Source: a virus. From it: 23,790 bases of DNA. Where the stretch lies: the UHGV virus genome UHGV-0045959. One strand, 5' to 3'. A program made the position numbers and the translations under genes. Of the stretch, positions 1-23,740 are shown one piece after another. Position 1 is the stretch's first letter; each line of letters begins with the position of its first letter. The notes under the pieces were generated by a model. It worked only from the letters and a program-made list of their open reading frames with translations, ran no database searches and was not told the origin of the DNA.

Positions 1-52
1 TAAACCCTGTTTTCCTTGCCATAGACACCATCCCTGTCTTCCCCCCCCCCCC

Positions 53-112
53 NNNNNNNNNNNNNNNNNNNNNNNNNNNNNNNNNNNNNNNNNNNNNNNN
101 NNNNNNNNNNNN
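53..112. other. assembly gap (run of N)
   Basis: 60 consecutive N, flanked by a 12-nt C run (41..52) and a 7-nt G run plus 8-nt T run (113..127). Confidence 0.99.
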
Positions 113-212
113 GGGGGGGTTTTTTTTATCAATTACTTACATGCAATCAAAAGTAAAAACAGGTACTTATCGAAAGCTGTAAGGGTTTGGAGCGGTTTCA
201 AAATTTCTTGAG

Positions 213-233
213 TGTGGACACTATGTGGACACT
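213..233. repeat. tandem 10-bp direct repeat TGTGGACACT x2, candidate integrase arm-type binding sites
   Basis: Exact 10-bp repeat at 213..222 and 224..233, 14 bp downstream of the int stop, where the att arm of a P2-type phage lies. Function is inferred from position. Confidence 0.4.
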
Positions 234-246
234 CAGAGGGGGAAAT

Positions 247-1227
247 TTATAACGTCACTCCGCCTTTTAGTGGATTCAGAGCGACGGCATTTTGCAGATA
301 GTCAGGCGCAAGGTGCGCATAGGCCATCGTCTGCTGAATGCTCGCATGTCCCAGAATCTGTTGCAGTGCGATTATATTGCCCCCATTCATCATGAAATGG
401 CTTGCGAATGTATGCCGCAGGATGTGGGTTGCCTGATTGGGTGGTATATCAGGTTTCACTCTGCGTAAAATCCCGCAAAATTTCTCATAATCAACTTTGA
501 ATAATTTGGCGCTGGCCTCCTCTTTAACTTTTTTCTCCAGTTCCTCAGAAATCGGCACGGTTCGCTTTTTACCGTTTTTGGTTTTCAGGAAGGTAACCCT
601 GCAATTTGTAATCTGTGCTGGTTTTAGCGTGGCAACTTCCGTCCATCTTCCTCCGGTGCTCAGACATAAAAGCGCGACAAGTAAGTCATCACCAGCCAAA
701 ACATTTAACAGTTTTTCGATTTCTGCTTTTTCCAGGAACGTCATTTCAGGGTTGGCCTCCGCCAGTGGCGGCAGTCCGTGAATTGGGTGTTGCCCGGAAA
801 ATTCATCCAATTGAATTAATTTTGTGAACATGCCGGATAATCGGTACATGTCACGGTTTATCGTTGCGGCACTGATACCATCACGTAGTCGCATGGAACG
901 ATAATCCATCAAAGCCCTTTTGCTCATCCTGCTCACTGGTATATCACCTATGCCGCTGATGGTTTTGAGTAGATGATTAAACTCTTTTGTTCCATGCTCG
1001 TGGTTTTGCCCGTGATATTTCCACCAGATGTCCAGCAACTCACTCAAAGTCCGGCGGTCTGCTCGCTGGCCTCCCCATTCTTTCTGACTGGCATTGGCGA
1101 TTGTGTATCGCTCAAATGCTAGTGCTTCAGCTTTTCTTTCGAATTTCCTGCGGATGCGTTTTCCGTCGCGACCGCGAGGTCTAATGTCCACTTCATAGCG
1201 ACCATCATCGAGCTTCTTAATTGCCAT
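247..1227 (-). CDS. int: tyrosine integrase (P2 Int family)
   Basis: ORF 247..1257; probable start at the internal MAIKKLDDGRYEV (about 326 aa). C-terminal catalytic region ATHILRHTFASHF...LGHASIQQTMAYAH shows the H-x-x-R...Y pattern of tyrosine recombinases. Lies at the edge of the phage next to the repressor. Confidence 0.9.
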   Translation of the reverse strand: MAIKKLDDGRYEVDIRPRGRDGKRIRRKFERKAEALAFERYTIANASQKEWGGQRADRRTLSELLDIWWKYHGQNHEHGTKEFNHLLKTISGIGDIPVSRMSKRALMDYRSMRLRDGISAATINRDMYRLSGMFTKLIQLDEFSGQHPIHGLPPLAEANPEMTFLEKAEIEKLLNVLAGDDLLVALLCLSTGGRWTEVATLKPAQITNCRVTFLKTKNGKKRTVPISEELEKKVKEEASAKLFKVDYEKFCGILRRVKPDIPPNQATHILRHTFASHFMMNGGNIIALQQILGHASIQQTMAYAHLAPDYLQNAVALNPLKGGVTL

Positions 1228-1296
1228 AAGAAAGCCCTCCGGCGCTGTATTCACCATCTTGGTAGCAAATGGTGAAAATGTAATCTTTATATAGAG

Positions 1297-1590
1297 TTAG
1301 CCAATCCTTTTCGCGGAGTGGTTGGACTCTGTTGACTCTGGCCCAATGTGCGCGAGAGCCGGTGCGATTTGTCCTGCGTCCGGCGCGGTTTTATCTGTCA
1401 TAAGCCATAGAGCATATTTTTGGAATGTGGGATGCATAGTGATTTTTAGCAAAGCTGTGCCACCGGGTTCAAAGTTTCCTCCTTCATATTTTTTAAGTGT
1501 GCTTAGCGGTAACTCTATGATTTCACAGAATTTTGATTGGCTTAGCCCTTCAGCCTCACGCAAGGCCTTAATCTTTTCGCTTAATTTCAT
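1297..1590 (-). CDS. C: immunity repressor (P2 C-like, 97 aa)
   Basis: Small HTH-like protein (LSQSKFCEIIELPLSTLKKYE) upstream of and co-oriented with int, divergent from cox; C-terminus QIAPALAHIGPE resembles the P2 C repressor. Confidence 0.8.
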   Translation of the reverse strand: MKLSEKIKALREAEGLSQSKFCEIIELPLSTLKKYEGGNFEPGGTALLKITMHPTFQKYALWLMTDKTAPDAGQIAPALAHIGPESTESNHSAKRIG

Positions 1591-3483: not shown

Positions 3484-3755
3484 GTATTCGTATTGAAATT
3501 GGCGAACGTTATGTCGTTACCAGTGACAGCTTTCAGTTTATTCTCCACGAGAAAAAGAGAGCGGAAAGCGGTAAAAACGCCGGTCAGGAATGGCTGGCGG
3601 TGGTTGGTTATTACCCGAAATTAGGCCAGCTCGTTTCCGGCCTGATGCATCACGATATTCTGACCGGAAGCGCAAAATCTTTTGCTGATTTAAACGCGCA
3701 GGTTGAGCAACTCAGCAAGCGTTGTTCAGAGGCTTTTGGCTCATATGGCCGTTAA
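3480..3755 (+). CDS. hypothetical early protein (91 aa)
   Basis: ATGA overlap with the preceding ORF at 3480..3483; its 3' end overlaps the A start. Confidence 0.55.
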   Translation: MSIRIEIGERYVVTSDSFQFILHEKKRAESGKNAGQEWLAVVGYYPKLGQLVSGLMHHDILTGSAKSFADLNAQVEQLSKRCSEAFGSYGR

Positions 3756-6024
3756 AGCCTCCGGGCGTTTTGTCCCTCCGTCAGCATTTACCGCAGGCAC
3801 CGGTAAGGCGTTTACCGGTGCTTATGCATGGAACGCGCCACGCGAGGCTGTCGGGCGCGAAAGACCTCTTACACGTGACGAGATGCGTCAGGTGCAAGGT
3901 GTTTTATCCACGATTAACCGCCTGCCTTACTTTTTGCGCTCGCTGTTTACTTCACGCTATGACTACATCCGGCGCAATAAAAGCCCGGTGCACGGGTTTT
4001 ATTTCCTCACATCTACTTTTCAGCGTCGTTTATGGCCGCGCATTGAGCGTGTGAATCAGCGCCATGAAATGAACACCGACGCGTCGTTGCTGTTTCTGGC
4101 AGAGCGTGACCACTATGCGCGCCTGCCGGGAATGAATGACAAGGAGCTGAAAAAGTTTGCCGCCCGTATCTCATCGCAGCTTTTCATGATGTATGAGGAA
4201 CTCTGCGATGCATGGGTTGATGCGCATGGTGAAAAAGAATCGCTGTTTACGGATGAGGCGCAGGCTCACCTGTATGGTCATGTTGCTGGCGCTGCACGTG
4301 CTTTCAATATTTCCCCGCTCTACTGGAAAAAATACCGTAAAGGACAGATGACCACGAGGCAGGCATATTCTGCCATTGCCCGCCTGTTTAACGATGAGTG
4401 GTGGACTCATCAGCTTAAAGGCCAGCGTATGCGCTGGCATGAGGCGTTACTGATAGCTGTCGGGGAGGTCAATAAAGACCGTTCTCCTTATGCCAGTAAA
4501 CACGCCATTCGTGATGTGCGTGCGCGCCGCCAGGCAAATCTGGAATTTCTTAAATCGTGTGACCTTGAAAACAGGGAAACCGGCGAGCGCATCGACCTTA
4601 TCAGTAAGGTGATGGGCAGTATTTCTAATCCTGAAATTCGCCGGATGGAGCTGATGAACACCATTGCCGGTATTGAGCGTTACGCCGCCGCAGAGGGTGA
4701 TGTGGGGATGTTTATCACGCTGACCGCGCCGTCAAAGTATCACCCGACACGTCAGGTCGGAAAAGGCGAAAGTAAAACCGTTCAGCTTAATCACGGCTGG
4801 AACGATGAGGCATTTAATCCAAAGGATGCGCAGCGTTATCTCTGCCGTATCTGGAGCCTGATGCGCACGGCATTCAAGGATAATGATTTACAGGTCTACG
4901 GTTTGCGAGTCGTCGAGCCACACCACGACGGAACGCCGCACTGGCATATGATGCTTTTTTGTCATCCACGCCAGCGTAACCAGATTATCGAAATCATGCG
5001 TCGCTATGCGCTCAAAGAGGATGGCGACGAAAGAGGAGCCGCGCGAAACCGTTTTCAGGCAAAACACCTTAACCGGGGCGGTGCTGCGGGATATATCGCG
5101 AAATACATTTCAAAAAACATCGACGGCTATGCACTGGATGGTCAGCTCGATAACGACACCGGCAGGCCGCTGAAAGACACTGCAGCGGCTGTTACCGCAT
5201 GGGCGTCAACGTGGCGCATTCCGCAATTTAAAACGGTTGGCCTGCCGACAATGGGGGCTTACCGTGAACTACGCAAATTGCCTCGCGGCGTCAGCATTGC
5301 TGATGAGTTTGACGAGCGCGTCGAGGCTGCACGCGCCGCCGCAGACAGTGGTGATTTTGCGCTGTATATCAGCGCGCAGGGCGGGGCAAATGTCCCGCGC
5401 GATTGTCAGACTGTCAGGGTCGCCCGTAGTCTGTCGGATGACGTTAACGAGTACGAGGAAGAAGTCGAGAGAGTGGTCGGCATTTACGCGCCGCATCTCG
5501 GCGCGCGTCATATTCATATCACCAGAACGACGGACTGGCGCATTGTGCCGAAAGTTCCGGTCGTTGAGCCTTTGACTTTAAAAAGCGGCATCGCCGCGCC
5601 TCGGAGTCCTGTCAATAACTGTGGAAAGCTCACCGGTGGTGATACTTCGTTACCGGCTCCCACACCTTCTGAGCACGCCGCAGCAGTGCTAAATCTGGTT
5701 GATGACGGTGTTATCGAATGGAATGACCCGGAGGTCGTGAGGGCGCTCAGGGGTGCATTAAAACACGGTCGGAGAACGCCAGGTCGTCAGCAAAGAAACG
5801 GAAGCCCGTTAAAACCACATGAAATTGCACCATCGGCCAGACTGACCCGGTCTGAACGATTGCAAATCACCCGTATCCGTGTTGACCTTGCTCAAAACGG
5901 TATCAGGCCGCAGCGATGGGAGCTTGAGGCGTTAGTACGCGGTGCGATCGTCAATTACAATGAAAAGCAATTTTCATATCCTAGTGTAGATGAGTGGAGT
6001 GGGTTTTCTGGTTATTCAGAGTAA
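3745..6024 (+). CDS. A: rolling-circle replication initiator endonuclease (P2 A family)
   Basis: ORF 3703..6024; likely start at the in-frame ATG 3745 (MAVKASGRF) just before the upstream stop. Contains the HWHMMLF-type motif and GYIAKYISKN segment typical of P2 A-like initiators; about 760 aa. Confidence 0.9.
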   Translation: MAVKASGRFVPPSAFTAGTGKAFTGAYAWNAPREAVGRERPLTRDEMRQVQGVLSTINRLPYFLRSLFTSRYDYIRRNKSPVHGFYFLTSTFQRRLWPRIERVNQRHEMNTDASLLFLAERDHYARLPGMNDKELKKFAARISSQLFMMYEELCDAWVDAHGEKESLFTDEAQAHLYGHVAGAARAFNISPLYWKKYRKGQMTTRQAYSAIARLFNDEWWTHQLKGQRMRWHEALLIAVGEVNKDRSPYASKHAIRDVRARRQANLEFLKSCDLENRETGERIDLISKVMGSISNPEIRRMELMNTIAGIERYAAAEGDVGMFITLTAPSKYHPTRQVGKGESKTVQLNHGWNDEAFNPKDAQRYLCRIWSLMRTAFKDNDLQVYGLRVVEPHHDGTPHWHMMLFCHPRQRNQIIEIMRRYALKEDGDERGAARNRFQAKHLNRGGAAGYIAKYISKNIDGYALDGQLDNDTGRPLKDTAAAVTAWASTWRIPQFKTVGLPTMGAYRELRKLPRGVSIADEFDERVEAARAAADSGDFALYISAQGGANVPRDCQTVRVARSLSDDVNEYEEEVERVVGIYAPHLGARHIHITRTTDWRIVPKVPVVEPLTLKSGIAAPRSPVNNCGKLTGGDTSLPAPTPSEHAAAVLNLVDDGVIEWNDPEVVRALRGALKHGRRTPGRQQRNGSPLKPHEIAPSARLTRSERLQITRIRVDLAQNGIRPQRWELEALVRGAIVNYNEKQFSYPSVDEWSGFSGYSE

Positions 6025-6233
6025 TAAACATAATGTTTTAGATTGGTTGCATAATGGTAAGGTTGCTGTTTATCTGTATATGTTAATATGATTACGCTAC
6101 GTACAAACAATCGACATTTCTTTTTTTCTATATATTAATATTGATGATTTTACTGGTGGTACAATAAGTCTATGTTGAAATTCGAGAATTGTATTATTAA
6201 CAATAAAAACTGGTTCTTTTTATTATACAAGGA

Positions 6234-6315
6234 NNNNNNNNNNNNNNNNNNNNNNNNNNNNNNNNNNNNNNNNNNNNNNNNNNNNNNNNNNNNNNNNNNN
6301 NNNNNNNNNNNNNNN
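6234..6315. other. assembly gap (run of N) inside the A-cos cargo island
   Basis: 82 consecutive N; the stop codon of the 827-aa gene lies 11 nt to its right. Confidence 0.99.
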
Positions 6316-6326
6316 TCTTTTACTGT

Positions 6327-8810
6327 TTAACGAGGGTTTCGCGTATAGGTTTCAACTATGTCTGATGCACGTAATTTACATGTGATCAATTGTTCTCTTA
6401 TAAATATCTCATCGTGTCGTTTATCACTTGTACAAATGGCCGTGATAAAACTGAGGATAGATGCTTTAAAACGTTCAAGATCATTTATGGTCATTATTCG
6501 AGACCCTTCGTTTAGTGTTGCGGCATATTCAGGCATATTAGAGTGATGTATCATTATAGGTGTGGCGGTAGCAGTTTGATCATACATGTTTCTGAACCAT
6601 GCACCCGACCCATTTAACTGATTGCAGTCATGCTTACTTATTCTTTCTGCGGTTGCTCCATTTTTGCATTCAATTACTAGATAATTGTTTTCTCCCATTG
6701 CCCATAAATTGTCAGGTCCTTTACCTGTATCATTTTCTGGCCGTTGGCTACGAAAACCGACCAAATATGCAACTTTTTCGATAGCATCTTCGAAGGGATT
6801 CGATGTGCCCTCGGAGAAAATAAGGTTTTCTATTATTGAATTAGTATGCACAACGACTTGATTGGCCGATTCAAAATTACTTCTGAGATAGGAGCTACAT
6901 TCCCTGGCCTGTTCAAGTGCCGCACCATTAAGTCTATTATATGTTACGCCGATTAGTGGTTTTAATACCCGATAGTTATCGTTTGATGCAGACTGAAGCA
7001 ATATCTGAGCTTCAGATTTGTCATATAAGTTTACATATTCCGCAGCATGTTCTTTTAGATAACCCTTATAAACTTTGTCAGCTGTACTACTATCATTTTT
7101 TAGAGTTAAAGCGGCTTGTTGAAACATATTTCGTGATGCTAAGTCATATGCCAATCTTTTATTTATAGTATGCTGGTCAATCTGCTTATTTTCCAATGTT
7201 AAGCCAGTCAATATACCTTTGCTTTTTGAGACCCAGTCAGAATTGCGTAACAGACAATAATCAAGAGCACCTTTGATTGAATCAATAGTTGTATCCGGCA
7301 GTATCGATACCAATTGCTGTGAAAGTTGAATTTGTGCTTTCGTTGCTGGAGAAAACCTTTCTAAGGAGGAGCCAAGGAAAACAGCGCCATTTAATGCTTT
7401 GCCAAGTAAGATCACTCCGCAGAAGTCGTCGCTTGATCTCACTCCTCGCCCCATTCCTTGTTCAATTTTCTGGATAATTTCATCTTTGGTTTTTTCGCTT
7501 CCAAGCAATAAGCTTTGTGAGACTTTATCTATTAGTCTACGAACGTCAGGAAGTCCATCTATTACTAATAGACGACATGCGGTATTTGGTAAATCAATAC
7601 CATCATATCTATTAACTAGGACTACTAAGCCAACATGTTGTGTCCTTAATTCTTGTACACCTTGATAAATTGTATTTTTATCTAATATTCTGTCTGCAAC
7701 ATCTTGCCAAAATCTAGTTCTGTAATCGGATGGTACAATTACAACAACATTATGTTTGGAGGATATCTCCTTGCACATAGCTTTGATATCTACATCAGAA
7801 AGACTAGGGTTTATAACCTGAGGCATTAGTATCATTCTATCACCAATATCACCAATTGTTTTTGGTGTTATCGGATTAGAGAGTGATTCATCCGTTATTC
7901 CGAAGTGGCTCGCTAGAATGGATTCATCGACAAGAGTAGCTGTCATGAATATTTTTCTTCTTGCGTTTGATAGGCTTGGGATCATTTGGATTGGTATGCA
8001 ATGAGGTGATATCTCTATTTTGGAAGCACTTACAACGCATTTCGATAATATTAGATTGTCTTTTATTAATGGCCATTTGAAACTCAAGTCATCATGGTCT
8101 TTATTTTCTAACAAGATTGTCATTATATCATTTATGCTTTCTTGCCATTTCCAAAATGGAACTCTCACATAAGCATTTCTATCGCCGGATTTTATCTCTA
8201 GTGTTTTTGCACCAGCTTGTGTCATTAGTGAATTTTCAAAAATTCTGAATAATTTATCATAGGCAGGGTTGTTTTTTTGAATGCTAATGGAGAATTGTTC
8301 TTCAATTGAAGAAAGGCAAGCGTGAGCATCGTCAATTATTATAGAACCTATTGGTATTCTTTGTCCATCATCTCCAACGCCAAATGCAGAACGTCCATTA
8401 ACCACTTTGAATATATTTGTAACTAAAATTTCTTTACCTGCAATAAATTTGGGGGACCTCTCATCTTGAGTTACAGGTATACCAAGTTGATTAGCCTCCA
8501 AAACCACTTGCTCAACTAGATAGTTGTCAGGAACAACATATACAGCGGGACCTTCTCCTTCATTTATACAGCTTTTAAGAATGATTAACCCAACTGAAGT
8601 TTTACCGCTTCCGGTATTCATTTTTATTACATTGGTTGGGCTTCTCCTTGCTTCATACCATTTTTCCCAGACCTCTGATTGCACATCTCGAGGGTATTGA
8701 AATTTGGTGTCTTTGCTCGGTAGAGCTGTAAATATATCTCGCGGTGGAATCGCTGTGTCGCTATTTACACTGGGCGAAAGCTTGGTTAAATCAAGGAAAA
8801 AACCAGACAT
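6327..8810 (-). CDS. SF2 helicase fused to a C-terminal PD-(D/E)xK-like nuclease module; candidate single-protein anti-phage defence gene
   Basis: 827-aa ORF with GAGGA Shine-Dalgarno 7 nt upstream of the ATG. Helicase motifs in order: I MNTGSGKTS (aa 64-72), II IIIDDAH (aa 157-163), III MTATL, V YDGIDLP, VI QGMGRGVR (aa 451-458). C-terminal GPD (aa 698-700) followed 14 residues later by VIECK (aa 712-716). Markedly AT-rich compared with flanking phage genes. Confidence 0.8.
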   Translation of the reverse strand: MSGFFLDLTKLSPSVNSDTAIPPRDIFTALPSKDTKFQYPRDVQSEVWEKWYEARRSPTNVIKMNTGSGKTSVGLIILKSCINEGEGPAVYVVPDNYLVEQVVLEANQLGIPVTQDERSPKFIAGKEILVTNIFKVVNGRSAFGVGDDGQRIPIGSIIIDDAHACLSSIEEQFSISIQKNNPAYDKLFRIFENSLMTQAGAKTLEIKSGDRNAYVRVPFWKWQESINDIMTILLENKDHDDLSFKWPLIKDNLILSKCVVSASKIEISPHCIPIQMIPSLSNARRKIFMTATLVDESILASHFGITDESLSNPITPKTIGDIGDRMILMPQVINPSLSDVDIKAMCKEISSKHNVVVIVPSDYRTRFWQDVADRILDKNTIYQGVQELRTQHVGLVVLVNRYDGIDLPNTACRLLVIDGLPDVRRLIDKVSQSLLLGSEKTKDEIIQKIEQGMGRGVRSSDDFCGVILLGKALNGAVFLGSSLERFSPATKAQIQLSQQLVSILPDTTIDSIKGALDYCLLRNSDWVSKSKGILTGLTLENKQIDQHTINKRLAYDLASRNMFQQAALTLKNDSSTADKVYKGYLKEHAAEYVNLYDKSEAQILLQSASNDNYRVLKPLIGVTYNRLNGAALEQARECSSYLRSNFESANQVVVHTNSIIENLIFSEGTSNPFEDAIEKVAYLVGFRSQRPENDTGKGPDNLWAMGENNYLVIECKNGATAERISKHDCNQLNGSGAWFRNMYDQTATATPIMIHHSNMPEYAATLNEGSRIMTINDLERFKASILSFITAICTSDKRHDEIFIREQLITCKLRASDIVETYTRNPR

Positions 8811-8870
8811 TTTTTATCCTCTTACAGGTACATTAGTTTAATTGTTAACGCAGAATTATCATTACCATAA

Positions 8871-8900
8871 CTTGCATTAAGTTGCATTACATTGCATTCA
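8871..8900. repeat. three tandem 10-bp repeats containing TTGCATT
   Basis: cTTGCATTaa / gTTGCATTac / aTTGCATTca at 8871..8900, 61-90 bp upstream of the 827-aa gene start and about 95 bp from cos. Confidence 0.6.
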
Positions 8901-8993
8901 TAAACGTTAGCTAGGGGCGAAGTCTGAGGTTTGATGGGCTATGGTGTCCCCTTTAATACGAGGTTGCATCAAAACCGCCCCATGAAGCGGGCG

Positions 8994-9012
8994 GGCGAGG
9001 CGGGGAAAGCAC
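8994..9012. other. cos: cos site (P2-type 19-nt cohesive-end sequence)
   Basis: GGCGAGGCGGGGAAAGCAC matches the P2 cohesive-end sequence as I recall it; located upstream of the Q/P packaging genes as in P2. Confidence 0.75.
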
Positions 9013-9181: not shown

Positions 9182-10216
9182 TCAGCCGTTGTCAGTGTCC
9201 AGTGAGTAGTTTTTAAAGCGGATGACCTCCTGACCGAGCCAGCCGTTTATCTCGCGGATCCTGTCCTGTAGCGGGATAAGCTCATTGCGGACAAAGACCT
9301 TTGCCACTTTCTCAATATCTCCCAGTGACCCGACGTTCTCCGGCTTGCCGCCCATCAACTGAAAGGGGATGCGGTGCGCGTCCAGCAGGTCAGCGGCGCT
9401 GGCTTTTTTGATATTAAAAAAATCGTCCTTCGTTGCCACTTCACTGAGCGGGATAATTTTAATGCCGTCAGCTTTCCCCTGCGGGGCATAGAGAAACAGA
9501 TTTTTAAAGTTGTTGCGGCCTTTCGACTTAACCATGTTTTCGCGAAGCATTTCGATATCGTTGCGGTCCTGCACGGCATCGGTGACGTACATGATATATC
9601 CGGCATGAGCGCCGTTTTCGTAATACTTGCGGCGGAACAGCGTGGCTGACTCATTCAGCCAGGCAGAGTTAAGGGCGCTCAGATATTCTGGCAGGCCGTA
9701 CAGCTCCTGATTGATATCCGGCTCCAGCAGGTGAAACACGGAGCCGGGCGTGAAAGGTGTCGGCTCGTTGAAGGACGGCACCCACCAGTAAACATCCTCC
9801 TCCACGCCACGACGGGTATATTTTGCCGGTGAGGTTTCCAGTCTGATGACCTTACCGGTGGTGCTGTAACGCTTTTCCAGAAACGCATTACCGAACACCA
9901 GAAAATCCAGCACAAAGCGGCTGAAATCCTGCTGGGAAAGCCACGGATGCGGGATAAATGTTGAGGCCAGAATATTACGTTTGACGTAAATCGGTGAGCT
10001 GTGATGCACGGCAGCACGCAGGCTTTTTGCCAGACCGGTAAAGCTGACCGGTGGTTCATACCATCTGCCGTTACTGATGCACTCGACGTAATCCAGAATG
10101 TCACGGCGGTCGAGTACCGGTACCGGCTCGCCAAAGGTGAATGCTTCCATTTTCGGGGCGCTGGCGGTCATTTTTTTGGCCGCAGGTTGCGGTGTTTTCC
10201 CTTTTTTCTTGCTCAT
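9182..10216 (-). CDS. Q: portal protein (gpQ)
   Basis: 344 aa, identical in size to P2 gpQ; first gene clockwise of cos, co-oriented with the terminase; start overlaps the P stop by 1 nt. Confidence 0.9.
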   Translation of the reverse strand: MSKKKGKTPQPAAKKMTASAPKMEAFTFGEPVPVLDRRDILDYVECISNGRWYEPPVSFTGLAKSLRAAVHHSSPIYVKRNILASTFIPHPWLSQQDFSRFVLDFLVFGNAFLEKRYSTTGKVIRLETSPAKYTRRGVEEDVYWWVPSFNEPTPFTPGSVFHLLEPDINQELYGLPEYLSALNSAWLNESATLFRRKYYENGAHAGYIMYVTDAVQDRNDIEMLRENMVKSKGRNNFKNLFLYAPQGKADGIKIIPLSEVATKDDFFNIKKASAADLLDAHRIPFQLMGGKPENVGSLGDIEKVAKVFVRNELIPLQDRIREINGWLGQEVIRFKNYSLDTDNG

Positions 10217-11988
10217 CAGTAAAACTCCAGAATGGTGGATGTCAGCGGGGTGCTGATACCGGCGGTGAGTGGCTCATTTAACAGGGCGTGCATGGTCGCC
10301 CAGGCGAGGTCGGCGTGGCTGGCTTCCTCGCTGCGGCTGGCCTCATACGTGGCGCTGCGTCCGCTGCTGGTCATGGTCTTGCGGATAGCCATAAACGAGC
10401 TGGTGATGTCGGTGGCGCTGACGTCATATTCCAGACAGCCACGGCGGATGACGTCTTTTGCCTTGAGCACCATTGCGGTTTTCATTTCCGGTGTGTAGCG
10501 GATATCGCGCGCGGCGGGATAGAACGAGCGCACGAGCTGGAACACGCCGACACCGAGGCCGGTGGCATCAATACCGATGTATTCGACGTTGTATTTTTCG
10601 GTGAGTTTGCGGATGGATTCCGCCTGAGTGGCAAAGTCCATGCCTTTCCACTGGTGACGCTCAAGTATTCTGAATTTGCCACCGGCCACCACCGGCGGTG
10701 CCAGTACCACGCATCCGGCGCTGTCGCCACGGTGTGACGGGTCGTAACCAATCCATACCGGGCGGGAGCCGAACGGATTCGCGGCAAACGGCGCATAGTC
10801 TTCCCATTCTTCCAGCGTGTCGACCATGCAGCGTTGCAGCTCCTCGAACGGGAACACCGACGCCTTGTCGTCAACAAATTCACACATGAACAGGTTTTTA
10901 AAATCGTCGGCGCTGTTTTCACGTTTGAGCTGCTCAATGTCGAACAGCGTGCAGCCGCCTTTCAGCGCGTCCTCAATGGTGACAATCTGCCGCCACTGGC
11001 CGTCTGCACAGAGAAGCCCACCGGCAAGGGCGTTATGACTGACGTCGATTTCCACGCGTTCGGCGGCGCTGGCGCGTCCCCGGTTGAACAGTTCACCCGA
11101 CCAGAACGGGTAGGCGTCGTGCGCCAGCGTGGACGGGGTGGAGAAATAGGTCGAACGCAGGTGACTCTGTGAGGCCATACCTGATGCCACCTTACGCAGT
11201 ACCTGAAAATTCGGGATCCAGAAAATCTCGTCGACGTACAGGTCGCCGTTATGGCTCTGCGCGGTGTTGGAGTTGGTGCCGAGAAAAATCAGTTTTGCGC
11301 CGTTATTGCCCAGGACAATCGGGTCACCGGTCAGGTCAACGTCAACCAGCCGGGCAAAGGCGATGATGTATTCGCGGAACACATACGCCTGCGTTTTACT
11401 GGCCGACAGAAAAATCTGGTTATGACCGGTTTTCAGGGCGCGCAGCAGCGCCTCGCGGGAAAAATAAAACGTCGCGCCAATCTGGCGGGATTTCAGGATA
11501 TCGCGGATGCGGTGCTCAAGCCCGGCGCGATACCAGTGCAACTGATATTCGAAAGACTGCTCAAAGAAAATCTGCTCCAGCTTTTCGATGGCCTCGTCAC
11601 TGAAAAAATTCTTTTTCGGTTTGCGCCGCCCGCCTTTGTTGCGGTTAGCGACGTTCGGATTAAGGTCTGCCTCGTTGCCGGTCTGACTGTAACGGTTGAC
11701 CCGTGCCAGTCGTTCAATCTGGCGTCCCAGCAGGTCAATTTCCTTGAAGTCACCGCCGGTTTTCTGCGGTTTGATGATGAGCTGGGTCAGCCGCGCTTCC
11801 AGACTCATTTCGACACGGCTGATGGGGGCAACGCTGTCCCAGCCGTCGCGCTGTTTCCAGCTCTGCACCGTCGGGCGTTTCATCTGCAACATGGCGGCAA
11901 TCTGCGGCACGGAAAATCCCTGCCAGTACAGCAGCGCCGCCTGACGACGCGGGTCGTGTAAAAGAGTGGTGTCTGTGGTGATGGTCAT
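10216..11988 (-). CDS. P: terminase large subunit (gpP)
   Basis: ORF 10216..12018; likely start at MTITTDTTLL (11988), about 590 aa as in P2 gpP. Confidence 0.9.
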   Translation of the reverse strand: MTITTDTTLLHDPRRQAALLYWQGFSVPQIAAMLQMKRPTVQSWKQRDGWDSVAPISRVEMSLEARLTQLIIKPQKTGGDFKEIDLLGRQIERLARVNRYSQTGNEADLNPNVANRNKGGRRKPKKNFFSDEAIEKLEQIFFEQSFEYQLHWYRAGLEHRIRDILKSRQIGATFYFSREALLRALKTGHNQIFLSASKTQAYVFREYIIAFARLVDVDLTGDPIVLGNNGAKLIFLGTNSNTAQSHNGDLYVDEIFWIPNFQVLRKVASGMASQSHLRSTYFSTPSTLAHDAYPFWSGELFNRGRASAAERVEIDVSHNALAGGLLCADGQWRQIVTIEDALKGGCTLFDIEQLKRENSADDFKNLFMCEFVDDKASVFPFEELQRCMVDTLEEWEDYAPFAANPFGSRPVWIGYDPSHRGDSAGCVVLAPPVVAGGKFRILERHQWKGMDFATQAESIRKLTEKYNVEYIGIDATGLGVGVFQLVRSFYPAARDIRYTPEMKTAMVLKAKDVIRRGCLEYDVSATDITSSFMAIRKTMTSSGRSATYEASRSEEASHADLAWATMHALLNEPLTAGISTPLTSTILEFY

Positions 11989-12161
11989 GAATACCTCGCC
12001 GTGATGAATACACGGCAAGGCTACTGAGTCGCGCCCCGCGATTCGCTAAGGTGCTGTTGTGTCAGTGATAAGCCATCCGGGACTGATGGCGGAGGATGCG
12101 CATCGTCGGGAAACTGATGCCGACATGTGACTCCTCTAATCACTATTCAGGACTCCTGACA
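11989..12161. promoter_or_regulatory. divergent late-promoter region between P and O
   Basis: 173-bp intergenic region between divergently transcribed P and O, where P2 has its Ogr-dependent late promoters. Small inverted repeat CCGTG-n7-CACGG at 11999..12015. No consensus element confirmed. Confidence 0.4.
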
Positions 12162-20321: not shown

Positions 20322-20925
20322 TTCGCGCCTGCTGCCGACCGGCTCATCACCGCTTGAAGTTGCCGCCGCAAAAGCCTGTGCGGAAATTGAAAAAACGCCG
20401 GTCAGTATTCGTGAACTGTGGAACCCGGATACCTGTCCGGCAAATCTGCTGTCGTGGCTGGCGTGGTCATTTTCGGTTGACCGCTGGGATGATAAGTGGC
20501 CGGAAGCGACAAAACGCGCTGTTATCCGCGATGCGTATTTCATTCACTGCCATAAGGGCACTATAGGCGCAATCCGGCGTGTGGTGGAGCCGCTCGGCTA
20601 TCTGATTGAGGTGAGGGAGTGGTGGCAGCTCAACGAGGAACCGGGGACGTTCCGCATCGTTGTTGGCGTGCTTGAGCAGGGTATTACCGAGGAAATGTAT
20701 CAGGAGCTGGAGCGTCTCGTTGCTGATGCAAAACCTGCAAGCCGCCATCTGACGGGACTGGCTATCAGTTTAAGTACAACCGGCAACATTTTTGCCGGTG
20801 CGGGATGCTATCACGGCGACGCCCTGACGGTTTATCCCTACACCCCGGAGGCCATTATTGTCGGAGGGGATTATTTCCCGGCCTCGGCCATTCATTTAAT
20901 TGATAACCTGAGAGTAAACGCATGA
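20314..20925 (+). CDS. I: baseplate / tail-fibre attachment protein (gpI-like)
   Basis: 203 aa between J and the tail-fibre gene, overlapping both neighbours; somewhat longer than the P2 gpI size I recall. Confidence 0.8.
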   Translation: MSDSRLLPTGSSPLEVAAAKACAEIEKTPVSIRELWNPDTCPANLLSWLAWSFSVDRWDDKWPEATKRAVIRDAYFIHCHKGTIGAIRRVVEPLGYLIEVREWWQLNEEPGTFRIVVGVLEQGITEEMYQELERLVADAKPASRHLTGLAISLSTTGNIFAGAGCYHGDALTVYPYTPEAIIVGGDYFPASAIHLIDNLRVNA

Positions 20926-22217
20926 CAGTGAAATACTACGCCATTCTGACTAATCAGGGCGCAGCACGGCTGGCTAACGCGACGATGCTTGGCAGTAAGC
21001 TGAATCTGACGCAAATGGCCGTTGGTGATGCGAATGGTGTCTTGCCGACACCAGACCCGGCACAGACAAAACTGATTAATCAGAAACGCATTGCACCGCT
21101 GAATCTTCTGAGTGTTGACCCGAACAACCAGAGCCAGATTATTGCGGAGCAAATCATCCCTGAGAACGAGGGCGGATTCTGGATCCGTGAGATTGGGCTT
21201 TATGATGATGAAGGCGTACTCATTGCGGTGGCCAACTGCCCGGAAACGTACAAACCGCAGTTACAGGAAGGCAGTGGTCGTACCCAGACTATCCGCATGA
21301 TTCTGGTTGTCACGAATATCGAAGCCATCACGCTGAAAATCGACCCGTCGGTGGTACTGGCGACCCGTAAATATGTGGATGATGAAGTCCTGGAATTAAG
21401 GCTGTATGTGGATGACCAGATGAGAAACCACATTGCCGCACAGGATCCTCATACCCAGTATGCACAGAAACATAATCCGACATTTACCGGAGAACCAAAA
21501 GCCCCGACGCCTGCCGCAGGAAATAACACCACGCGGATTGCGACCACTGAGTTTGTTCAGGCCGCTATTACCGCTCTGATTAACGGCGCGCCAGCCACGC
21601 TGGACACACTGAAAGAAATTGCCGCAGCCATTAACAATGACCCGAAATTCAGCACCACTATTAACAATGCGCTGTCAGGTAAGCAGCCACTGGATGAGAC
21701 GCTGACTCATTTGAGCGGAAAGGATGTTGCCGGCCTTCTCGCATACCTTGGTTTGGGAGAAACGATAAATAGAGCCTCCAGAGCTATGCAGAAATCGGCT
21801 AATGGATCTGATATTTCTGATGTATCAGCCTTCCGAAATGCGCTCCAGTTAGGGACCGCTGCAACACGAGATGTTGGAGCAGATAATGCCTCGAAGTTAC
21901 TGGATTTAGACAGCTTCAGGTCAATGATGTCAGGTAATGGCTACATCTACATTCCATGCATTGCGACGACAGGAAACCCGGTGAAACTTATGTTGCAGTG
22001 GGGAACGGTGGCAACACAAAAGGGAGCTGATGCTGGATATGCCTTACCATTTGCTTTTCCCTATGCAGGCTTGTTTGCGACCGGAAACCGTGGAACATCT
22101 GGCTACAATGCCGCGATGAATGTGCGTATTGCCAGCAGAACGCATATCAGTATTCAGAACTGGTCGCCATCCGGAGAGGGCACCGAAGATTGTTGTTTTA
22201 TCGCGCTGGGGTATTAA
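20922..22217 (+). CDS. H: tail fibre protein (gpH-like): constant N-terminal part plus currently expressed variable C-terminal tip
   Basis: 431 aa with a conserved phage tail-fibre N-terminus (MTVKYYAILTNQGAARLANA...FWIREIGLYDDEGVLIAVAN); the C-terminal 150 aa lie inside the invertible segment. Shorter than P2 gpH. Confidence 0.88.
   Translation: MTVKYYAILTNQGAARLANATMLGSKLNLTQMAVGDANGVLPTPDPAQTKLINQKRIAPLNLLSVDPNNQSQIIAEQIIPENEGGFWIREIGLYDDEGVLIAVANCPETYKPQLQEGSGRTQTIRMILVVTNIEAITLKIDPSVVLATRKYVDDEVLELRLYVDDQMRNHIAAQDPHTQYAQKHNPTFTGEPKAPTPAAGNNTTRIATTEFVQAAITALINGAPATLDTLKEIAAAINNDPKFSTTINNALSGKQPLDETLTHLSGKDVAGLLAYLGLGETINRASRAMQKSANGSDISDVSAFRNALQLGTAATRDVGADNASKLLDLDSFRSMMSGNGYIYIPCIATTGNPVKLMLQWGTVATQKGADAGYALPFAFPYAGLFATGNRGTSGYNAAMNVRIASRTHISIQNWSPSGEGTEDCCFIALGY
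21736..21761. other. left recombination (crossover) site of the invertible tail-fibre segment (gix/cix/hix-like)
   Basis: 26-bp TTCTCGCATACC-TT-GGTTTGGGAGAA with imperfect dyad symmetry; its reverse complement matches the first 14 bp of the right site and 20 of 26 positions of the hix-type consensus as I recall it. Lies inside H at codons 272-280 (LLAYLGLGE). Confidence 0.7.
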
Positions 22218-22219
22218 GA

Positions 22220-22636
22220 ATGAATAAATTTTATAAAGGCTCTTTCTATCCGAAAGCACTAAAAGAGGTATATATCAGCGCCGGTTCATGGCCTGAAAAT
22301 GGCGTTGATGTTGATGATGAAACAATAGCAATTTACACAGGCGTAGCGCCAGAAGGCAAAACGCTGGGGGCTGATAAAAATGGTAATCCTGCATGGATTG
22401 ATATCCCGCCACTCTCCGCTGAACAACAGATTATTCAGGCTGAACAGAAAAGAACGGTATTGCGTTCAATGGCTGATAAGGAAATAGTCTGGAGACAGGA
22501 TGCTTTTGATGCGGAAATCGCGACGGCAGAAGAAACCGCCGCGTTGTCTGAATGGAAAAAATATCGGGTCTTACTGATGCGCGTTGATACATCAAATCCC
22601 GTCTGGCCTACGCCTCCGGGGGAGCAGGCCAATTGA
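22220..22636 (+). CDS. G: tail fibre assembly chaperone (gpG/Tfa-like) for the expressed fibre tip
   Basis: ORF 22190..22636; ATG at 22220 (MNKFYKGSFYP), 3 nt after the H stop. C-terminus VDTSNPVWPTPPGEQAN is the conserved Tfa C-terminal motif. Confidence 0.8.
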   Translation: MNKFYKGSFYPKALKEVYISAGSWPENGVDVDDETIAIYTGVAPEGKTLGADKNGNPAWIDIPPLSAEQQIIQAEQKRTVLRSMADKEIVWRQDAFDAEIATAEETAALSEWKKYRVLLMRVDTSNPVWPTPPGEQAN

Positions 22637-23228
22637 TATCCGGCGCGGTGCTGGTATCAGTTACCGTCACCGCGTCAATGTAATCCAGCACGACGTTAAG
22701 CCGGGTGGTTTCTGTCTGCGTCAGTTTTCGCCCGGCCTGCAATTTCAGTTGAATCAGATTAATGGAAGCCATTGCAGTATCAATCAGTGACTGTCGCTGT
22801 GTTTCTGCCGCGCCTACTGCGGCGCTATGCTGTGCCTCAGTATCTGTCACCCATTTCTCACCATCCCATTCATCGTATGGCGTTAACGGGGCGACAGTGG
22901 TTGTGTTTTCAGGGTAATCCCCCGGAGTGGTGATTTCTGCTGCCTCACGGGTTTCTGTGTTATAGACTGTCTCACCCCGATGGTCCGGCACGTACTCCCA
23001 CGCGGTCAGGTCGGCTGTGCGGCAAATTGCATAACCAGCCCGCCTTTCCCCGGGGGCATCAGTGCATGAATGTGCAGGAAGGCCAACGCCCACAGCCAGA
23101 TATTCGGTTGACGTGCAAAGGTATTCCCGCGTCTTATTATCGTAGCTGTGGACAACAACCTCTCCTGCAACTGTTGCCAGCCGCGATTCATTCAGCACCG
23201 CTGTAGTCATGGTTTTCTTGCTCATCAT
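22608..23228 (-). CDS. alternative tail fibre assembly chaperone (Tfa') serving the silent fibre tip
   Basis: 206 aa on the minus strand; C-terminus VTDTSTAPDINWPAPPEA parallels the C-terminus of the plus-strand Tfa; its 3' end overlaps that gene by 29 bp. Confidence 0.78.
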   Translation of the reverse strand: MMSKKTMTTAVLNESRLATVAGEVVVHSYDNKTREYLCTSTEYLAVGVGLPAHSCTDAPGERRAGYAICRTADLTAWEYVPDHRGETVYNTETREAAEITTPGDYPENTTTVAPLTPYDEWDGEKWVTDTEAQHSAAVGAAETQRQSLIDTAMASINLIQLKLQAGRKLTQTETTRLNVVLDYIDAVTVTDTSTAPDINWPAPPEA

Positions 23229-23740
23229 GCAGCCCTTACGATGTAGTTAAATGCAATGTTACGTGGCCTTGCATAACCCAGATACTGAATCCCCCAGGCT
23301 CCCACTGGAACGGGGTTCCAGATATGTTCTGTAGGTATACTTTTCGCTCTGAGAATATCTGAATTGGTTTCAGTTTTATCCCATCCCAGCAGGGCAATGT
23401 CGTTTACCGAAAACTGCACCACGCTGTCGGGTGATATATTGGCTTCCTGAACCAGATAAGAGCCTTTTTGCCACGACAACAACGTCCGGCTACTGTCCAC
23501 TCCGCGCCCGTCATCCCAGCCACGAATAAATTCACCACGTAAATCAGGCAATATATTTGTCGGGTAAGCCTTTGCCAGTTCCGGGTATTCTTCAGCAGAA
23601 AATGCCGCCCCGTTGCATTTCAGCCAGCCTGTTGGCAGTGTGGCTGAAGGCCACGGAACAGGCACACCAACGGGTAATACAGAGCCTTCTCCCAAACCAA
23701 CGTTTATGAAAATGCAGAGATAACGGGCAAGTGGCATCAT
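23225..23740 (-). CDS. alternative tail-fibre C-terminal cassette (Sv'-like), silent in this orientation
   Basis: 171-aa ORF containing a phage tail-collar-like motif LPDLRGEFIRGWDDGRG. Residues 14-18 VGLGE are encoded by the right crossover site and match the LGLGE junction in H. Only sequence downstream of the crossover would be fused to H after inversion. Confidence 0.75.
   Translation of the reverse strand: MMPLARYLCIFINVGLGEGSVLPVGVPVPWPSATLPTGWLKCNGAAFSAEEYPELAKAYPTNILPDLRGEFIRGWDDGRGVDSSRTLLSWQKGSYLVQEANISPDSVVQFSVNDIALLGWDKTETNSDILRAKSIPTEHIWNPVPVGAWGIQYLGYARPRNIAFNYIVRAA
23687..23712. other. right recombination (crossover) site of the invertible segment
   Basis: TTCTCCCAAACC-AA-CGTTTATGAAAA; first 14 bp identical to the reverse complement of the left site, central AA dinucleotide matching. 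Confidence 0.7.

What the first reader, a model, noticed from the sequence alone, without database searches (positions are those of the whole stretch)
6025..8993. AT-rich cargo island between A and cos, at the P2 old/tin accessory position
The roughly 3-kb stretch between the A stop and the cos sequence is visibly much more AT-rich than the flanking phage genes and carries one large gene on the opposite strand to A. In P2 this position holds the non-essential old/tin genes, and surveys of P2-like prophages describe it as a variable hotspot for anti-phage systems. The content here is not old or tin, so it is a swapped accessory cargo.
Basis: partly seen in the sequence, partly recalled or inferred. 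Interest (0 to 1): 0.85.

Follow-up and report, generated by a model that had tools for sequence, protein, structure and literature searches.

The report
Hna defence gene in P2 prophage hotspot
The AT-rich 3-kb stretch between gene A and cos of this P2-like prophage is a real swapped-in cargo cassette carrying a single Hna-family helicase-nuclease anti-phage gene, sitting in the already published P2 defence hotspot, so it is a well-supported but ordinary finding.

Summary
Window 6025-8993 has 36.8% G+C, against 44.8-59.2% for every other window of that length. It holds one 827-aa gene (6327-8810, minus strand) between P2 gene A (96% identical to P2 gpA) and the P2 cohesive end (8994-9012). Similarity to other P2-like phages stops at 5957-6086 and resumes at 8965; between these points other phages carry old/tin, a Fic protein or a DUF4209 protein.

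The cargo is neither Old nor Tin. It belongs to the Hna family (helicase-nuclease abortive infection; PADLOC candidate PDC-S28). It is 32% identical over 730 residues to the tested Sinorhizobium meliloti Hna (E 3e-129). Its predicted structure matches the Hna cryo-EM structure best. The SF2 ATPase motifs and the PD-(D/E)xK nuclease lysine (K716, equivalent to K729) are kept.

The hotspot is published (Rousset 2022), and this exact protein is listed there as 'ResIII/DEAD'. Hna is characterised (Sather 2023; Hooper 2026). The whole island occurs in 70 of 5426 complete E. coli genomes. Interest is low.

The parts
3745..6024 (+). P2 replication gene A (left conserved flank). The ORF opens at 3703, but the alignment to P2 gpA starts at Met15, which is 3745.
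   Evidence: 96% identity to P2 gpA over 759 aa. Annotated as replication endonuclease in E. coli relatives.
5958..6086 (.). Left junction zone, where similarity to other P2-like phages ends. It includes the last ~22 codons of A.
   Evidence: blastn against P2, STYP1 and 569R9 ends at 5957, 5997 and 6086.
6025..6326 (.). AT-rich non-coding spacer (25.9% G+C) downstream of both convergent genes; part of the cassette. It contains the N run 6234-6315. In identical E. coli loci that place holds a 19-nt hairpin, CCACCTCCTTAGGAGGTGG, 11 nt past the hna stop, which is probably a terminator.
   Evidence: The spacer 6000-6233 occurs in 70 complete E. coli genomes, the same number that carry the full island. 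No Rfam match.
6327..8810 (-). hna-family gene: 827-aa SF2 (XPD/DinG-like) ATPase/helicase fused to a C-terminal PD-(D/E)xK nuclease. Identical at the DNA level to the gene for WP_000012516 in E. coli M217.
   Evidence: PADLOC PDC-S28 full length, 1054.6 bits. Pfam ResIII, DEAD and Helicase_C_2. phmmer against PDB Hna chains 10uj/9yhn/9ykj, E 7e-121. BLASTP against S. meliloti Hna, 32% identity, E 3e-129. Foldseek top hit 9yhn, Hna monomer, E 8e-61.
8598..8612 (-). Walker A / helicase motif I, G67-S-G-K-T71.
   Evidence: G67, G69, K70 and T71 are invariant in 35 homologues. Aligned to GQGKT of S. meliloti Hna.
8322..8333 (-). Helicase motif II, D160-D-A-H163 (DExH type).
   Evidence: D160, D161 and H163 invariant. 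Identical DDAHAC in S. meliloti Hna.
7437..7460 (-). Helicase motif VI, Q451-G-M-G-R-G-V-R458.
   Evidence: Q451, G452, G454, R455 and R458 invariant. EQGMGRxVR is shared with S. meliloti Hna.
6663..6713 (-). PD-(D/E)xK nuclease core, D700 ... E714-C-K716.
   Evidence: D700, E714, C715 and K716 invariant. K716 aligns with K729 of S. meliloti Hna, whose K729A mutant is nuclease-dead (PMC13381803). [quoted passage not shown]
8811..8964 (-). Cargo-specific region upstream of hna. It has a ribosome-binding site AAGAGGA (8817-8823) and three TTGCATT repeats (about 8868-8900). The promoter was not identified.
   Evidence: Sequence read directly. The consensus scan finds no sigma-70 site here. There is no similarity to the P2 old promoter region, since homology to P2 resumes only at 8965.
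8965..9012 (.). Right conserved flank: cos region with the 19-nt P2 cohesive end at 8994-9012.
   Evidence: 96% identity to the last 48 nt of the P2 genome, annotated cosR. Exact 19-mer found.
9182..10216 (-). Portal gene Q (right backbone flank).
   Evidence: Annotated phage portal protein in the identical E. coli locus. 99-100% identity in IMG/VR P2-like contigs.

Best explanation
The island is a single-gene anti-phage cassette in the gpA-cos hotspot of a P2-like prophage, in the place and orientation of P2 old-tin. Its product is an Hna-family protein. It has two N-terminal XPD/DinG-like SF2 ATPase lobes without an Fe-S cluster, a helical linker, and a C-terminal PD-(D/E)xK nuclease.

Inferred by homology to S. 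meliloti Hna: in the uninfected lysogen the protein sits as an ATP-bound, auto-inhibited dimer. When another phage infects, that phage's single-stranded-DNA-binding protein (or a comparable replication factor) breaks the dimer. The nuclease then degrades DNA 3'-5' from single-stranded ends. The infected cell dies or stalls without releasing progeny (abortive infection), which protects sister lysogens and hence the prophage.

Shown here: location, cassette boundaries, foreign composition, family membership, intact catalytic motifs, and spread among P2-like phages and other mobile elements. Inferred only: the defence phenotype of this orthologue, its trigger, and its enzymology.
For: Family membership.
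- Full-length match to PADLOC PDC-S28 (1054.6 bits). The experimentally validated S. meliloti Hna hits the same model at 1020 bits.
- BLASTP against S. meliloti Hna gives 32% identity over residues 61-792, E 3e-129.
- phmmer against the PDB Hna chains gives E 7e-121, and 9YHN is the Hna structure.
- An AF2 model (pLDDT 82.7) has the Hna monomer and dimer as its top Foldseek hits (E 8e-61, 825 columns), followed by XPD, DinG and CasDinG.
- The Walker A, DDAH and QGxGRxxR motifs and D700/E714/K716 are invariant across 35 homologues. K716 equals the catalytic K729.

Published mechanism. Hna is a 3'-5' ssDNA exonuclease, ATP-inhibited as a dimer and activated by phage SSB (PMC13381803). Hna proteins from both S. 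meliloti and E. coli are reported to be activated by phage SSB (PMC10732053).

Accessory and mobile nature.
- G+C is 36.8% against 53-56% in the flanks.
- The island is present in 70 of 2155 flank-matching E. coli genomes.
- The same gene lies between gpQ and gpA in 12 IMG/VR P2-like contigs and in a Rouxiella prophage. There the backbone has diverged more than the cargo (gpA 33-79% identical, Hna 69-90%). In one contig the gene is in the opposite orientation.
- An 80% homologue in Pectobacterium lies in an integrase island next to Lamassu-like genes.
- A 54% homologue in P. aeruginosa lies in another integrative element.
- In sister P2 contigs the hotspot also holds a reverse transcriptase (retron-like) or a Panacea-domain pair next to hna.
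- The locus is a published defence hotspot, and WP_000012516 is listed in it.
Against: - There is no experimental evidence for this orthologue. I could not establish which E. coli Hna Sather et al. 2023 tested, because the paper is not held.
- Identity to the characterised Hna is only 32%.
- The first 60 residues do not align by BLASTP. They hold the dimer/SSB-competition loop in S. meliloti Hna. Of the three mutated dimer residues (T30, D31, P34), only the proline has a conserved counterpart (P40). Regulation or the trigger may therefore differ.
- No promoter was recognised upstream.
- The gene was not among the systems tested by Rousset et al., as far as their Table S2 text shows.
- No isolated phage in the INPHARED set carries it, so its expression from a P2 lysogen is untested.
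Confidence: 0.8

Rival explanations
1. The gene is a phage housekeeping helicase (DinG/XPD-like repair or replication helper) that serves the P2-like phage's own rolling-circle replication, not a defence gene.
For: Pfam sees only generic helicase domains. PHROGs relatives are labelled DNA helicase. The gene lies directly next to replication gene A.
Against: It is absent from about 97% of P2-type loci in E. coli, and P2 itself lacks it. Its composition is foreign. It is transcribed opposite to the early operon. The same gene occurs in non-phage integrative islands beside Lamassu-like genes. Its closest characterised relative is a defence protein with a nuclease that kills cells.
Confidence: 0.04
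2. It acts as a solitary restriction-like nuclease (Type III Res-like, or Cas3/DndH-like) that degrades incoming phage DNA directly, without killing the host.
For: Pfam ResIII hit, E 1e-9. Weak hits to dnd restriction and Cas3 models. Helicase-nuclease fusions often degrade invader DNA directly.
Against: The ResIII, Cas3 and Dnd hits cover only the generic ATP-binding lobe (residues 40-170). There is no methyltransferase or other self/non-self partner in the island. For the family prototype, abortive infection and ATP-restrained rather than ATP-driven nuclease activity with no duplex bypass are reported.
Confidence: 0.1
3. It is an inert remnant: a decaying passenger gene in a defective prophage with no current function.
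For: In many carrier strains, such as M217, the prophage is crippled by an IS21-family insertion in gene A. No promoter was recognised upstream.
Against: The ORF is intact at 827 aa and every catalytic motif is conserved. It is 100% identical across dozens of genomes and kept at 69-90% identity in diverged P2-like phages at the same locus. It has a good ribosome-binding site. Gene A is intact in this window.
Confidence: 0.05

Closest known systems
Hna (helicase-nuclease abortive infection) of Sinorhizobium meliloti pSymA, SMa2245; PDB 9YHN/9YKJ; equals PADLOC candidate PDC-S28
   Same: Single-gene system of similar length (827 versus 845 aa). Same domain order: HEL1, HEL2, helical linker, PD-(D/E)xK nuclease. 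Same ATPase motifs and catalytic lysine. Same PADLOC model at an equal score. Best structural match.
   Different: Only 32% identical. The N-terminal 60 residues, which hold the dimer/SSB-interaction loop, have diverged (K36/F37/P40 against T30/D31/P34). It is carried in a P2 prophage hotspot rather than on a rhizobial megaplasmid. Phenotype and trigger are untested here.
P2 old and tin (lysogenic-conversion exclusion genes of phage P2)
   Same: Same locus between gpA and cos. Same leftward orientation towards A, beginning about 150-185 nt from cos. Non-essential. Old is also a single ATPase-plus-nuclease exclusion protein.
   Different: No sequence similarity. Old is an ABC-type ATPase with a Toprim nuclease, not an SF2 helicase with a PD-(D/E)xK nuclease. 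The promoter region is not shared.
P2/P4 cos-proximal defence hotspot (Rousset et al. 2022, PMC9122126)
   Same: Exactly this locus. WP_000012516 appears in their Table S5 as a single-gene 'ResIII/DEAD' arrangement.
   Different: That paper did not name or test this cassette. Linking it to Hna rests on the analysis here.
XPD / DinG / ExoDinG / CasDinG helicases
   Same: Fold of the two helicase lobes with a reduced Arch insertion (Foldseek E 1e-10 to 3e-13; Helicase_C_2 and typeIV_DinG hits).
   Different: 11-16% identity. No Fe-S cluster cysteine set. An added C-terminal PD-(D/E)xK nuclease. Not associated with CRISPR or repair operons.
Other helicase-nuclease defences: Hachiman HamAB, Nhi, Cas3, DdmD
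   Same: General logic of an ATPase/helicase sensor coupled to a nuclease effector. Several are triggered by phage SSB.
   Different: Different helicase subfamilies and nuclease placements. There are no significant matches to their PADLOC models beyond the ATP-binding lobe.

Membership tests
Hna (PADLOC PDC-S28) | Single-protein system of about 840 aa with no obligatory partner gene | tested here: met
   827-aa ORF. No other ORF of 60 aa or more lies outside it between A and cos. It is annotated as a lone gene in 70 E. coli genomes.
Hna (PADLOC PDC-S28) | Significant full-length sequence similarity to the experimentally validated Hna | tested here: met
   BLASTP E 3e-129, 32% identity over residues 61-792. 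phmmer against the PDB chains E 7e-121. Both proteins hit PDLC04986 end to end at 1055 and 1020 bits.
Hna (PADLOC PDC-S28) | N-terminal SF2 helicase/ATPase motifs (Walker A, DExH-type motif II, motif VI) | tested here: met
   G67xGKT71, D160-D-A-H163 and Q451GxGRxxR458 are invariant in 35 homologues and shared with S. meliloti Hna.
Hna (PADLOC PDC-S28) | C-terminal PD-(D/E)xK nuclease with a catalytic lysine (K729 in S. meliloti Hna) | tested here: met
   D700 ... E714-C-K716, with K716 aligned to K729. The residues are invariant. [quoted passage not shown]
Hna (PADLOC PDC-S28) | Overall fold like the Hna cryo-EM structure: DinG/XPD-like lobes, no Fe-S cluster | tested here: met
   Foldseek top hits are 9yhn (E 8e-61, 825 columns, TM 0.67) and 9ykj, followed by XPD and DinG. 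The high rmsd reflects differences in domain placement.
Hna (PADLOC PDC-S28) | Conserved unstructured HEL1 loop that mediates the auto-inhibited dimer (T30/D31/P34 in S. meliloti Hna) | tested here: inconclusive
   An N-terminal segment that is invariant within the subfamily (P23, R24, F27, L30, P31, K33, Y39-P-R-D-V-Q44) is predicted disordered, with pLDDT below 50 at residues 19-26 and 31-38. Only P34 maps to P40. T30 and D31 correspond to K36 and F37. BLASTP does not align this region.
Hna (PADLOC PDC-S28) | Anti-phage abortive-infection phenotype; activation by phage SSB; ATP-inhibited 3'-5' ssDNA exonuclease | not testable with these tools
   Known for S. meliloti Hna. An E. coli Hna is reported to be SSB-activated, but I could not determine which protein that was.
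P2-like gpA-cos-gpQ defence hotspot cargo | Located between replication gene A and cos/portal gene Q of a P2-like phage | tested here: met
   gpA is 96% identical to P2 gpA. The cos 19-mer is at 8994-9012. Q and P lie downstream.
P2-like gpA-cos-gpQ defence hotspot cargo | Conserved flanks with different content in related phages | tested here: met
   The flanks match 2155 E. coli genomes but the cargo only 70. P2 has orf91/tin/old, STYP1 a Fic (VbhT) gene, and 569R9 a DUF4209 gene.
P2 Old / Tin | Sequence homology to P2 Old (OLD-family ATPase-Toprim) or Tin | tested here: not met
   The best BLASTP E-values are 6.6 and 2.0.
Type III restriction-modification (Res subunit) | Res helicase-nuclease paired with a Mod methyltransferase | tested here: not met
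   The Pfam ResIII hit covers only residues 40-168, the ATP-binding lobe. There is no second gene and no methyltransferase in the island.

The most novel reading that the evidence does not exclude
The P2-borne Hna clade forms a tight subfamily whose N-terminal loop (YPRDVQ and upstream) is invariant but differs from the S. meliloti dimer/SSB-competition loop. It may therefore be regulated or triggered differently from the prototype. Possibilities include a coliphage replication protein other than an SSB, or the replication intermediates of P4-type satellites or rival P2-like phages. Such a difference would also have to spare P2's own rolling-circle replication, which exposes 3' single-stranded ends. 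Hna is more conserved than the P2 backbone across genera, which could reflect such a phage-specific adaptation and not only recent transfer.
Probability: 0.15. Interest if true: 0.45.

Novelty: already known. Interest (0 to 1): 0.2.

Why it matters
It is a clean worked example of a prophage carrying a lysogen-protecting immunity gene in a recombination hotspot next to cos. It also ties an unnamed 'ResIII/DEAD' entry of the published P2 hotspot catalogue, and the PADLOC candidate PDC-S28, to the biochemically characterised Hna family.

It does not open a new question. The hotspot, the family and its mechanism are all published. The practical value is for annotation, and as a natural E. coli / P2 setting for testing Hna triggers with coliphages.

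Tried and rejected
- Old/Tin homology: rejected.
- Type III restriction or Cas3/Dnd membership: only the generic ATP-binding lobe matches and there is no partner gene.
- A hidden second gene or RNA in the 300-nt AT-rich spacer: only ORFs of 52 aa or fewer, and no credible Rfam hit (one snoRNA match at E 0.42 inside the coding region).
- Promoter search upstream of hna: the consensus scan found nothing in 8811-8964. Promoter-like sites over the whole region are no more frequent than in shuffled sequence.
- Aligning the upstream regions of four homologues showed no conserved element.
- Isolated phages carrying the gene: none in INPHARED by tblastn, apart from one mis-filed Salmonella contig at 30% identity.
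- Literature link between Hna and the P2 hotspot: no paper in the library holds both terms.
- Sather et al. 2023 is not held, so the identity of the tested E. coli Hna remains open. A search for 'EcHna' was uninformative.
- The N-run at 6234-6315 could not be resolved. It is 82 N, whereas identical E. coli loci have a 19-nt hairpin there.
Full report
**What the window is.** The window is a P2-like prophage integrated next to cpxP. The genes run in this order:
- integrase, 247-1257, minus strand
- C repressor, 1297-1590, minus strand
- Cox and the early operon
- replication gene A, ending at 6024
- one large minus-strand ORF, 6327-8810
- portal gene Q, 9182-10216, minus strand
- terminase gene P, 10216-12018, minus strand
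- the late genes

Gene A encodes a protein 96% identical to P2 gpA. The 19-nt P2 cohesive end GGCGAGGCGGGGAAAGCAC lies at 8994-9012.

**Checking the observation.** The interval 6025-8993 has 36.8% G+C.
- The A-to-hna spacer has 25.9%, the large gene 37.4%, and its upstream region 41%.
- Gene A has 53.3% and the late region 55.6%.
- Among 299 other windows of the same length, the minimum is 44.8%.
- Third-position G+C of the large gene is 0.28, against 0.52-0.71 in the phage genes.
- blastn against P2, vB_EcoM-569R9 and Salmonella phage STYP1 shows backbone similarity ending at 5957, 6086 and 5997. It resumes in all three at 8965/8966, 29 nt before the cohesive end.

The variable segment is therefore about 5958-8964. 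Eighty-two bases (6234-6315) are N in the window.

**Is it the variable old/tin position?** Yes. In P2 the same interval holds orf91, tin and old, with old-tin transcribed leftward from a start about 150-170 nt from cosR. STYP1 has a Fic/VbhT gene there and 569R9 a DUF4209 gene.
- In 5426 complete E. coli genomes, the flanks match in 2155 genomes but the full island in only 70, essentially all at 99% identity or more.
- The AT-rich spacer 6000-6233 occurs in 70 genomes, the same number, so it belongs to the cassette.
- Rousset et al. 2022 describe this gpA-gpQ locus as a hotspot with 1,650 arrangements in 18,150 loci, many of them defensive (PMC9122126).
- Their Table S5 lists WP_000012516 as a single-gene 'ResIII/DEAD' arrangement. 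This is the protein annotated at the 100%-identical locus of E. coli M217.
- It does not appear among the systems they tested.

**What the cargo is.** The protein has no similarity to P2 Old or Tin.
- Pfam sees only ResIII, DEAD and Helicase_C_2.
- PADLOC gives an end-to-end match to the candidate family PDC-S28 at 1054.6 bits.
- A search of PDB sequences gives E 7e-121 to chains 10uj/9yhn/9ykj. 9YHN belongs to the paper on the Hna anti-phage system (PMC13381803).
- I recovered S. meliloti 1021 Hna (SMa2245, 845 aa) from pSymA. BLASTP gives 32% identity over residues 61-792, E 3e-129.
- That validated Hna hits the same PADLOC model at 1020 bits, so PDC-S28 is the Hna family.

An alignment of 35 homologues (51-82% identical) shows invariant G67xGKT71, D160-D-x-H163, Q451GxGRxxR458 and D700 ... 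E714-C-K716. K716 aligns with K729, whose alanine mutant is nuclease-dead in S. meliloti Hna.

[quoted passage not shown] Its best Foldseek matches are the Hna monomer (E 8e-61, 825 aligned columns) and the Hna dimer, followed by XPD, DinG and CasDinG at E 1e-10 to 3e-13. On every sequence and structure criterion I could test, this protein is an Hna.

**How it most likely works (by homology, not shown here).** The published data on S. meliloti Hna are as follows.
- It is a single-protein abortive-infection system.
- It is a Mg2+/Mn2+-dependent 3'-5' ssDNA exonuclease that stops at duplex junctions.
- It is held in an ATP-bound, auto-inhibited homodimer through an unstructured HEL1 loop.
- It is released by a phage SSB that competes at the dimer interface. 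The resulting DNA degradation kills or arrests the cell.

Another paper states that Hna proteins from both S. meliloti and E. coli are activated by phage SSB, citing Sather et al. 2023 (PMC10732053). I could not read Sather et al., so I do not know whether their E. coli protein is this one.

The one feature that did not transfer cleanly is the regulatory loop.
- BLASTP does not align the first 60 residues.
- In a profile-guided alignment only P34 of T30/D31/P34 has a conserved counterpart, P40.
- This subfamily nevertheless has its own invariant N-terminal segment, predicted disordered, in the same place.

The ATP-gated dimer is therefore plausible, but the trigger specificity may differ.

**Mobility and context.** The same gene sits between gpQ and gpA in 12 IMG/VR P2-like contigs and in a Rouxiella silvae prophage.
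- The backbone diverges further than the cargo. gpA is 76-79% identical where Hna is 79-90%; gpA 50% where Hna is 75%; gpA 33% where Hna is 69%.
- In one contig (L023) the gene is inverted relative to A.
- This points to exchange of the cassette among P2-like phages through the conserved flanks, and to more than one insertion event.

Outside P2:
- An 80% homologue lies in a Pectobacterium integrase island next to Lamassu-like genes.
- A 54% homologue lies in a P. aeruginosa integrative element.
- More distant homologues lie on many plasmids.

In sister P2 contigs the hotspot stacks further systems beside hna. One has a reverse transcriptase plus a 235-aa ORF (retron-like); another has a Panacea/SocA-domain pair. 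No isolated phage in the INPHARED set carries the gene.

**Cassette anatomy.** The gene has a good ribosome-binding site, AAGAGGA, 6 nt before the ATG.
- The 154 nt upstream are cargo-specific and do not share the P2 old promoter.
- A consensus scan finds no sigma-70 promoter there, and upstream regions of homologues share no element.
- Downstream, identical E. coli loci have a 19-nt GC-rich hairpin 11 nt after the stop, at the place masked by N in the window. It probably terminates the convergent A and hna transcripts.
- There is no extra gene or Rfam RNA in the spacer.

**Rivals.**
- A housekeeping helicase is very unlikely, given that the gene is absent from most P2-like phages, has foreign composition and occurs in non-phage contexts.
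- A restriction-like, non-abortive mode cannot be excluded computationally. It lacks a partner gene and runs against the published behaviour of the family.
- An inert remnant is unlikely, given the intact motifs and conservation across diverged phages.

**Verdict.** The cargo is an Hna-family defence gene. The hotspot, the presence of this exact protein in it, and the family's mechanism are all published. What this analysis adds is the explicit link between the 'ResIII/DEAD' hotspot entry, PDC-S28 and Hna. Interest is low (0.2).

Noticed in passing
window 53-112 and 6234-6315: Two runs of N (60 and 82 bases). Both sit where identical E. coli M217 sequence has a short GC-rich hairpin: the cpxP terminator CCCCCACATGATGTGGGGG, and CCACCTCCTTAGGAGGTGG just past the hna stop. 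The N lengths do not match the 19-nt originals. The first run is flanked by C12 and G7, unlike the relative. This could be masking or assembly gaps at hairpins; the cause is unknown.
   Followed up: partly
window 8868-8900: Three closely spaced TTGCATT repeats (AATGCAA on the hna strand) in the cargo-specific region upstream of hna. They could be an operator or promoter element. No consensus sigma-70 promoter was found nearby, and the repeats are not conserved upstream of homologues in other genera.
   Followed up: partly
window 20922-23740: A tail-fibre gene (431 aa) and a Caudo_TAP chaperone on the plus strand are followed by a second Caudo_TAP chaperone (206 aa) and a Collar-domain ORF (171 aa) on the minus strand. 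This is the layout of an alternative or invertible tail-fibre host-range module. The window ends before any invertase could be seen.
   Followed up: partly
L001 2655-5233 (E. coli M217; corresponds to inside window gene A): In M217 the replication gene A of this same prophage is split by an IS21-family element (ISEc12 istA/istB), so that prophage is probably defective while keeping hna. Gene A is intact in the window.
   Followed up: no
L014 2579-4557; L021 7548-8638: Other P2-like viral contigs with the same or a 89%-identical hna carry extra cargo in the same hotspot. One has a reverse transcriptase (RVT_1) plus a 235-aa ORF, which is retron-like. The other has a Panacea/SocA-domain protein plus a DUF2975-like ORF.
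   Followed up: partly
L023 2419-8895; L005: Hna is more conserved than the phage backbone across P2-like phages: Hna 75% against gpA 50% in L023, and Hna 69% against gpA 33% in Rouxiella. In L023 the gene lies in the opposite orientation relative to A, implying cassette exchange and at least two independent insertions.
   Followed up: partly
L007 5431-6357 (S. meliloti pSymA, just downstream of hna): [quoted passage not shown] The prototype therefore also sits beside another candidate defence gene. No counterpart exists in the window.
   Followed up: no
window 1-260: The prophage attachment junction lies directly downstream of cpxP. The left host flank is identical to the E. coli M217 cpxP 3' region, so the host is E. 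coli or a very close relative.
   Followed up: partly
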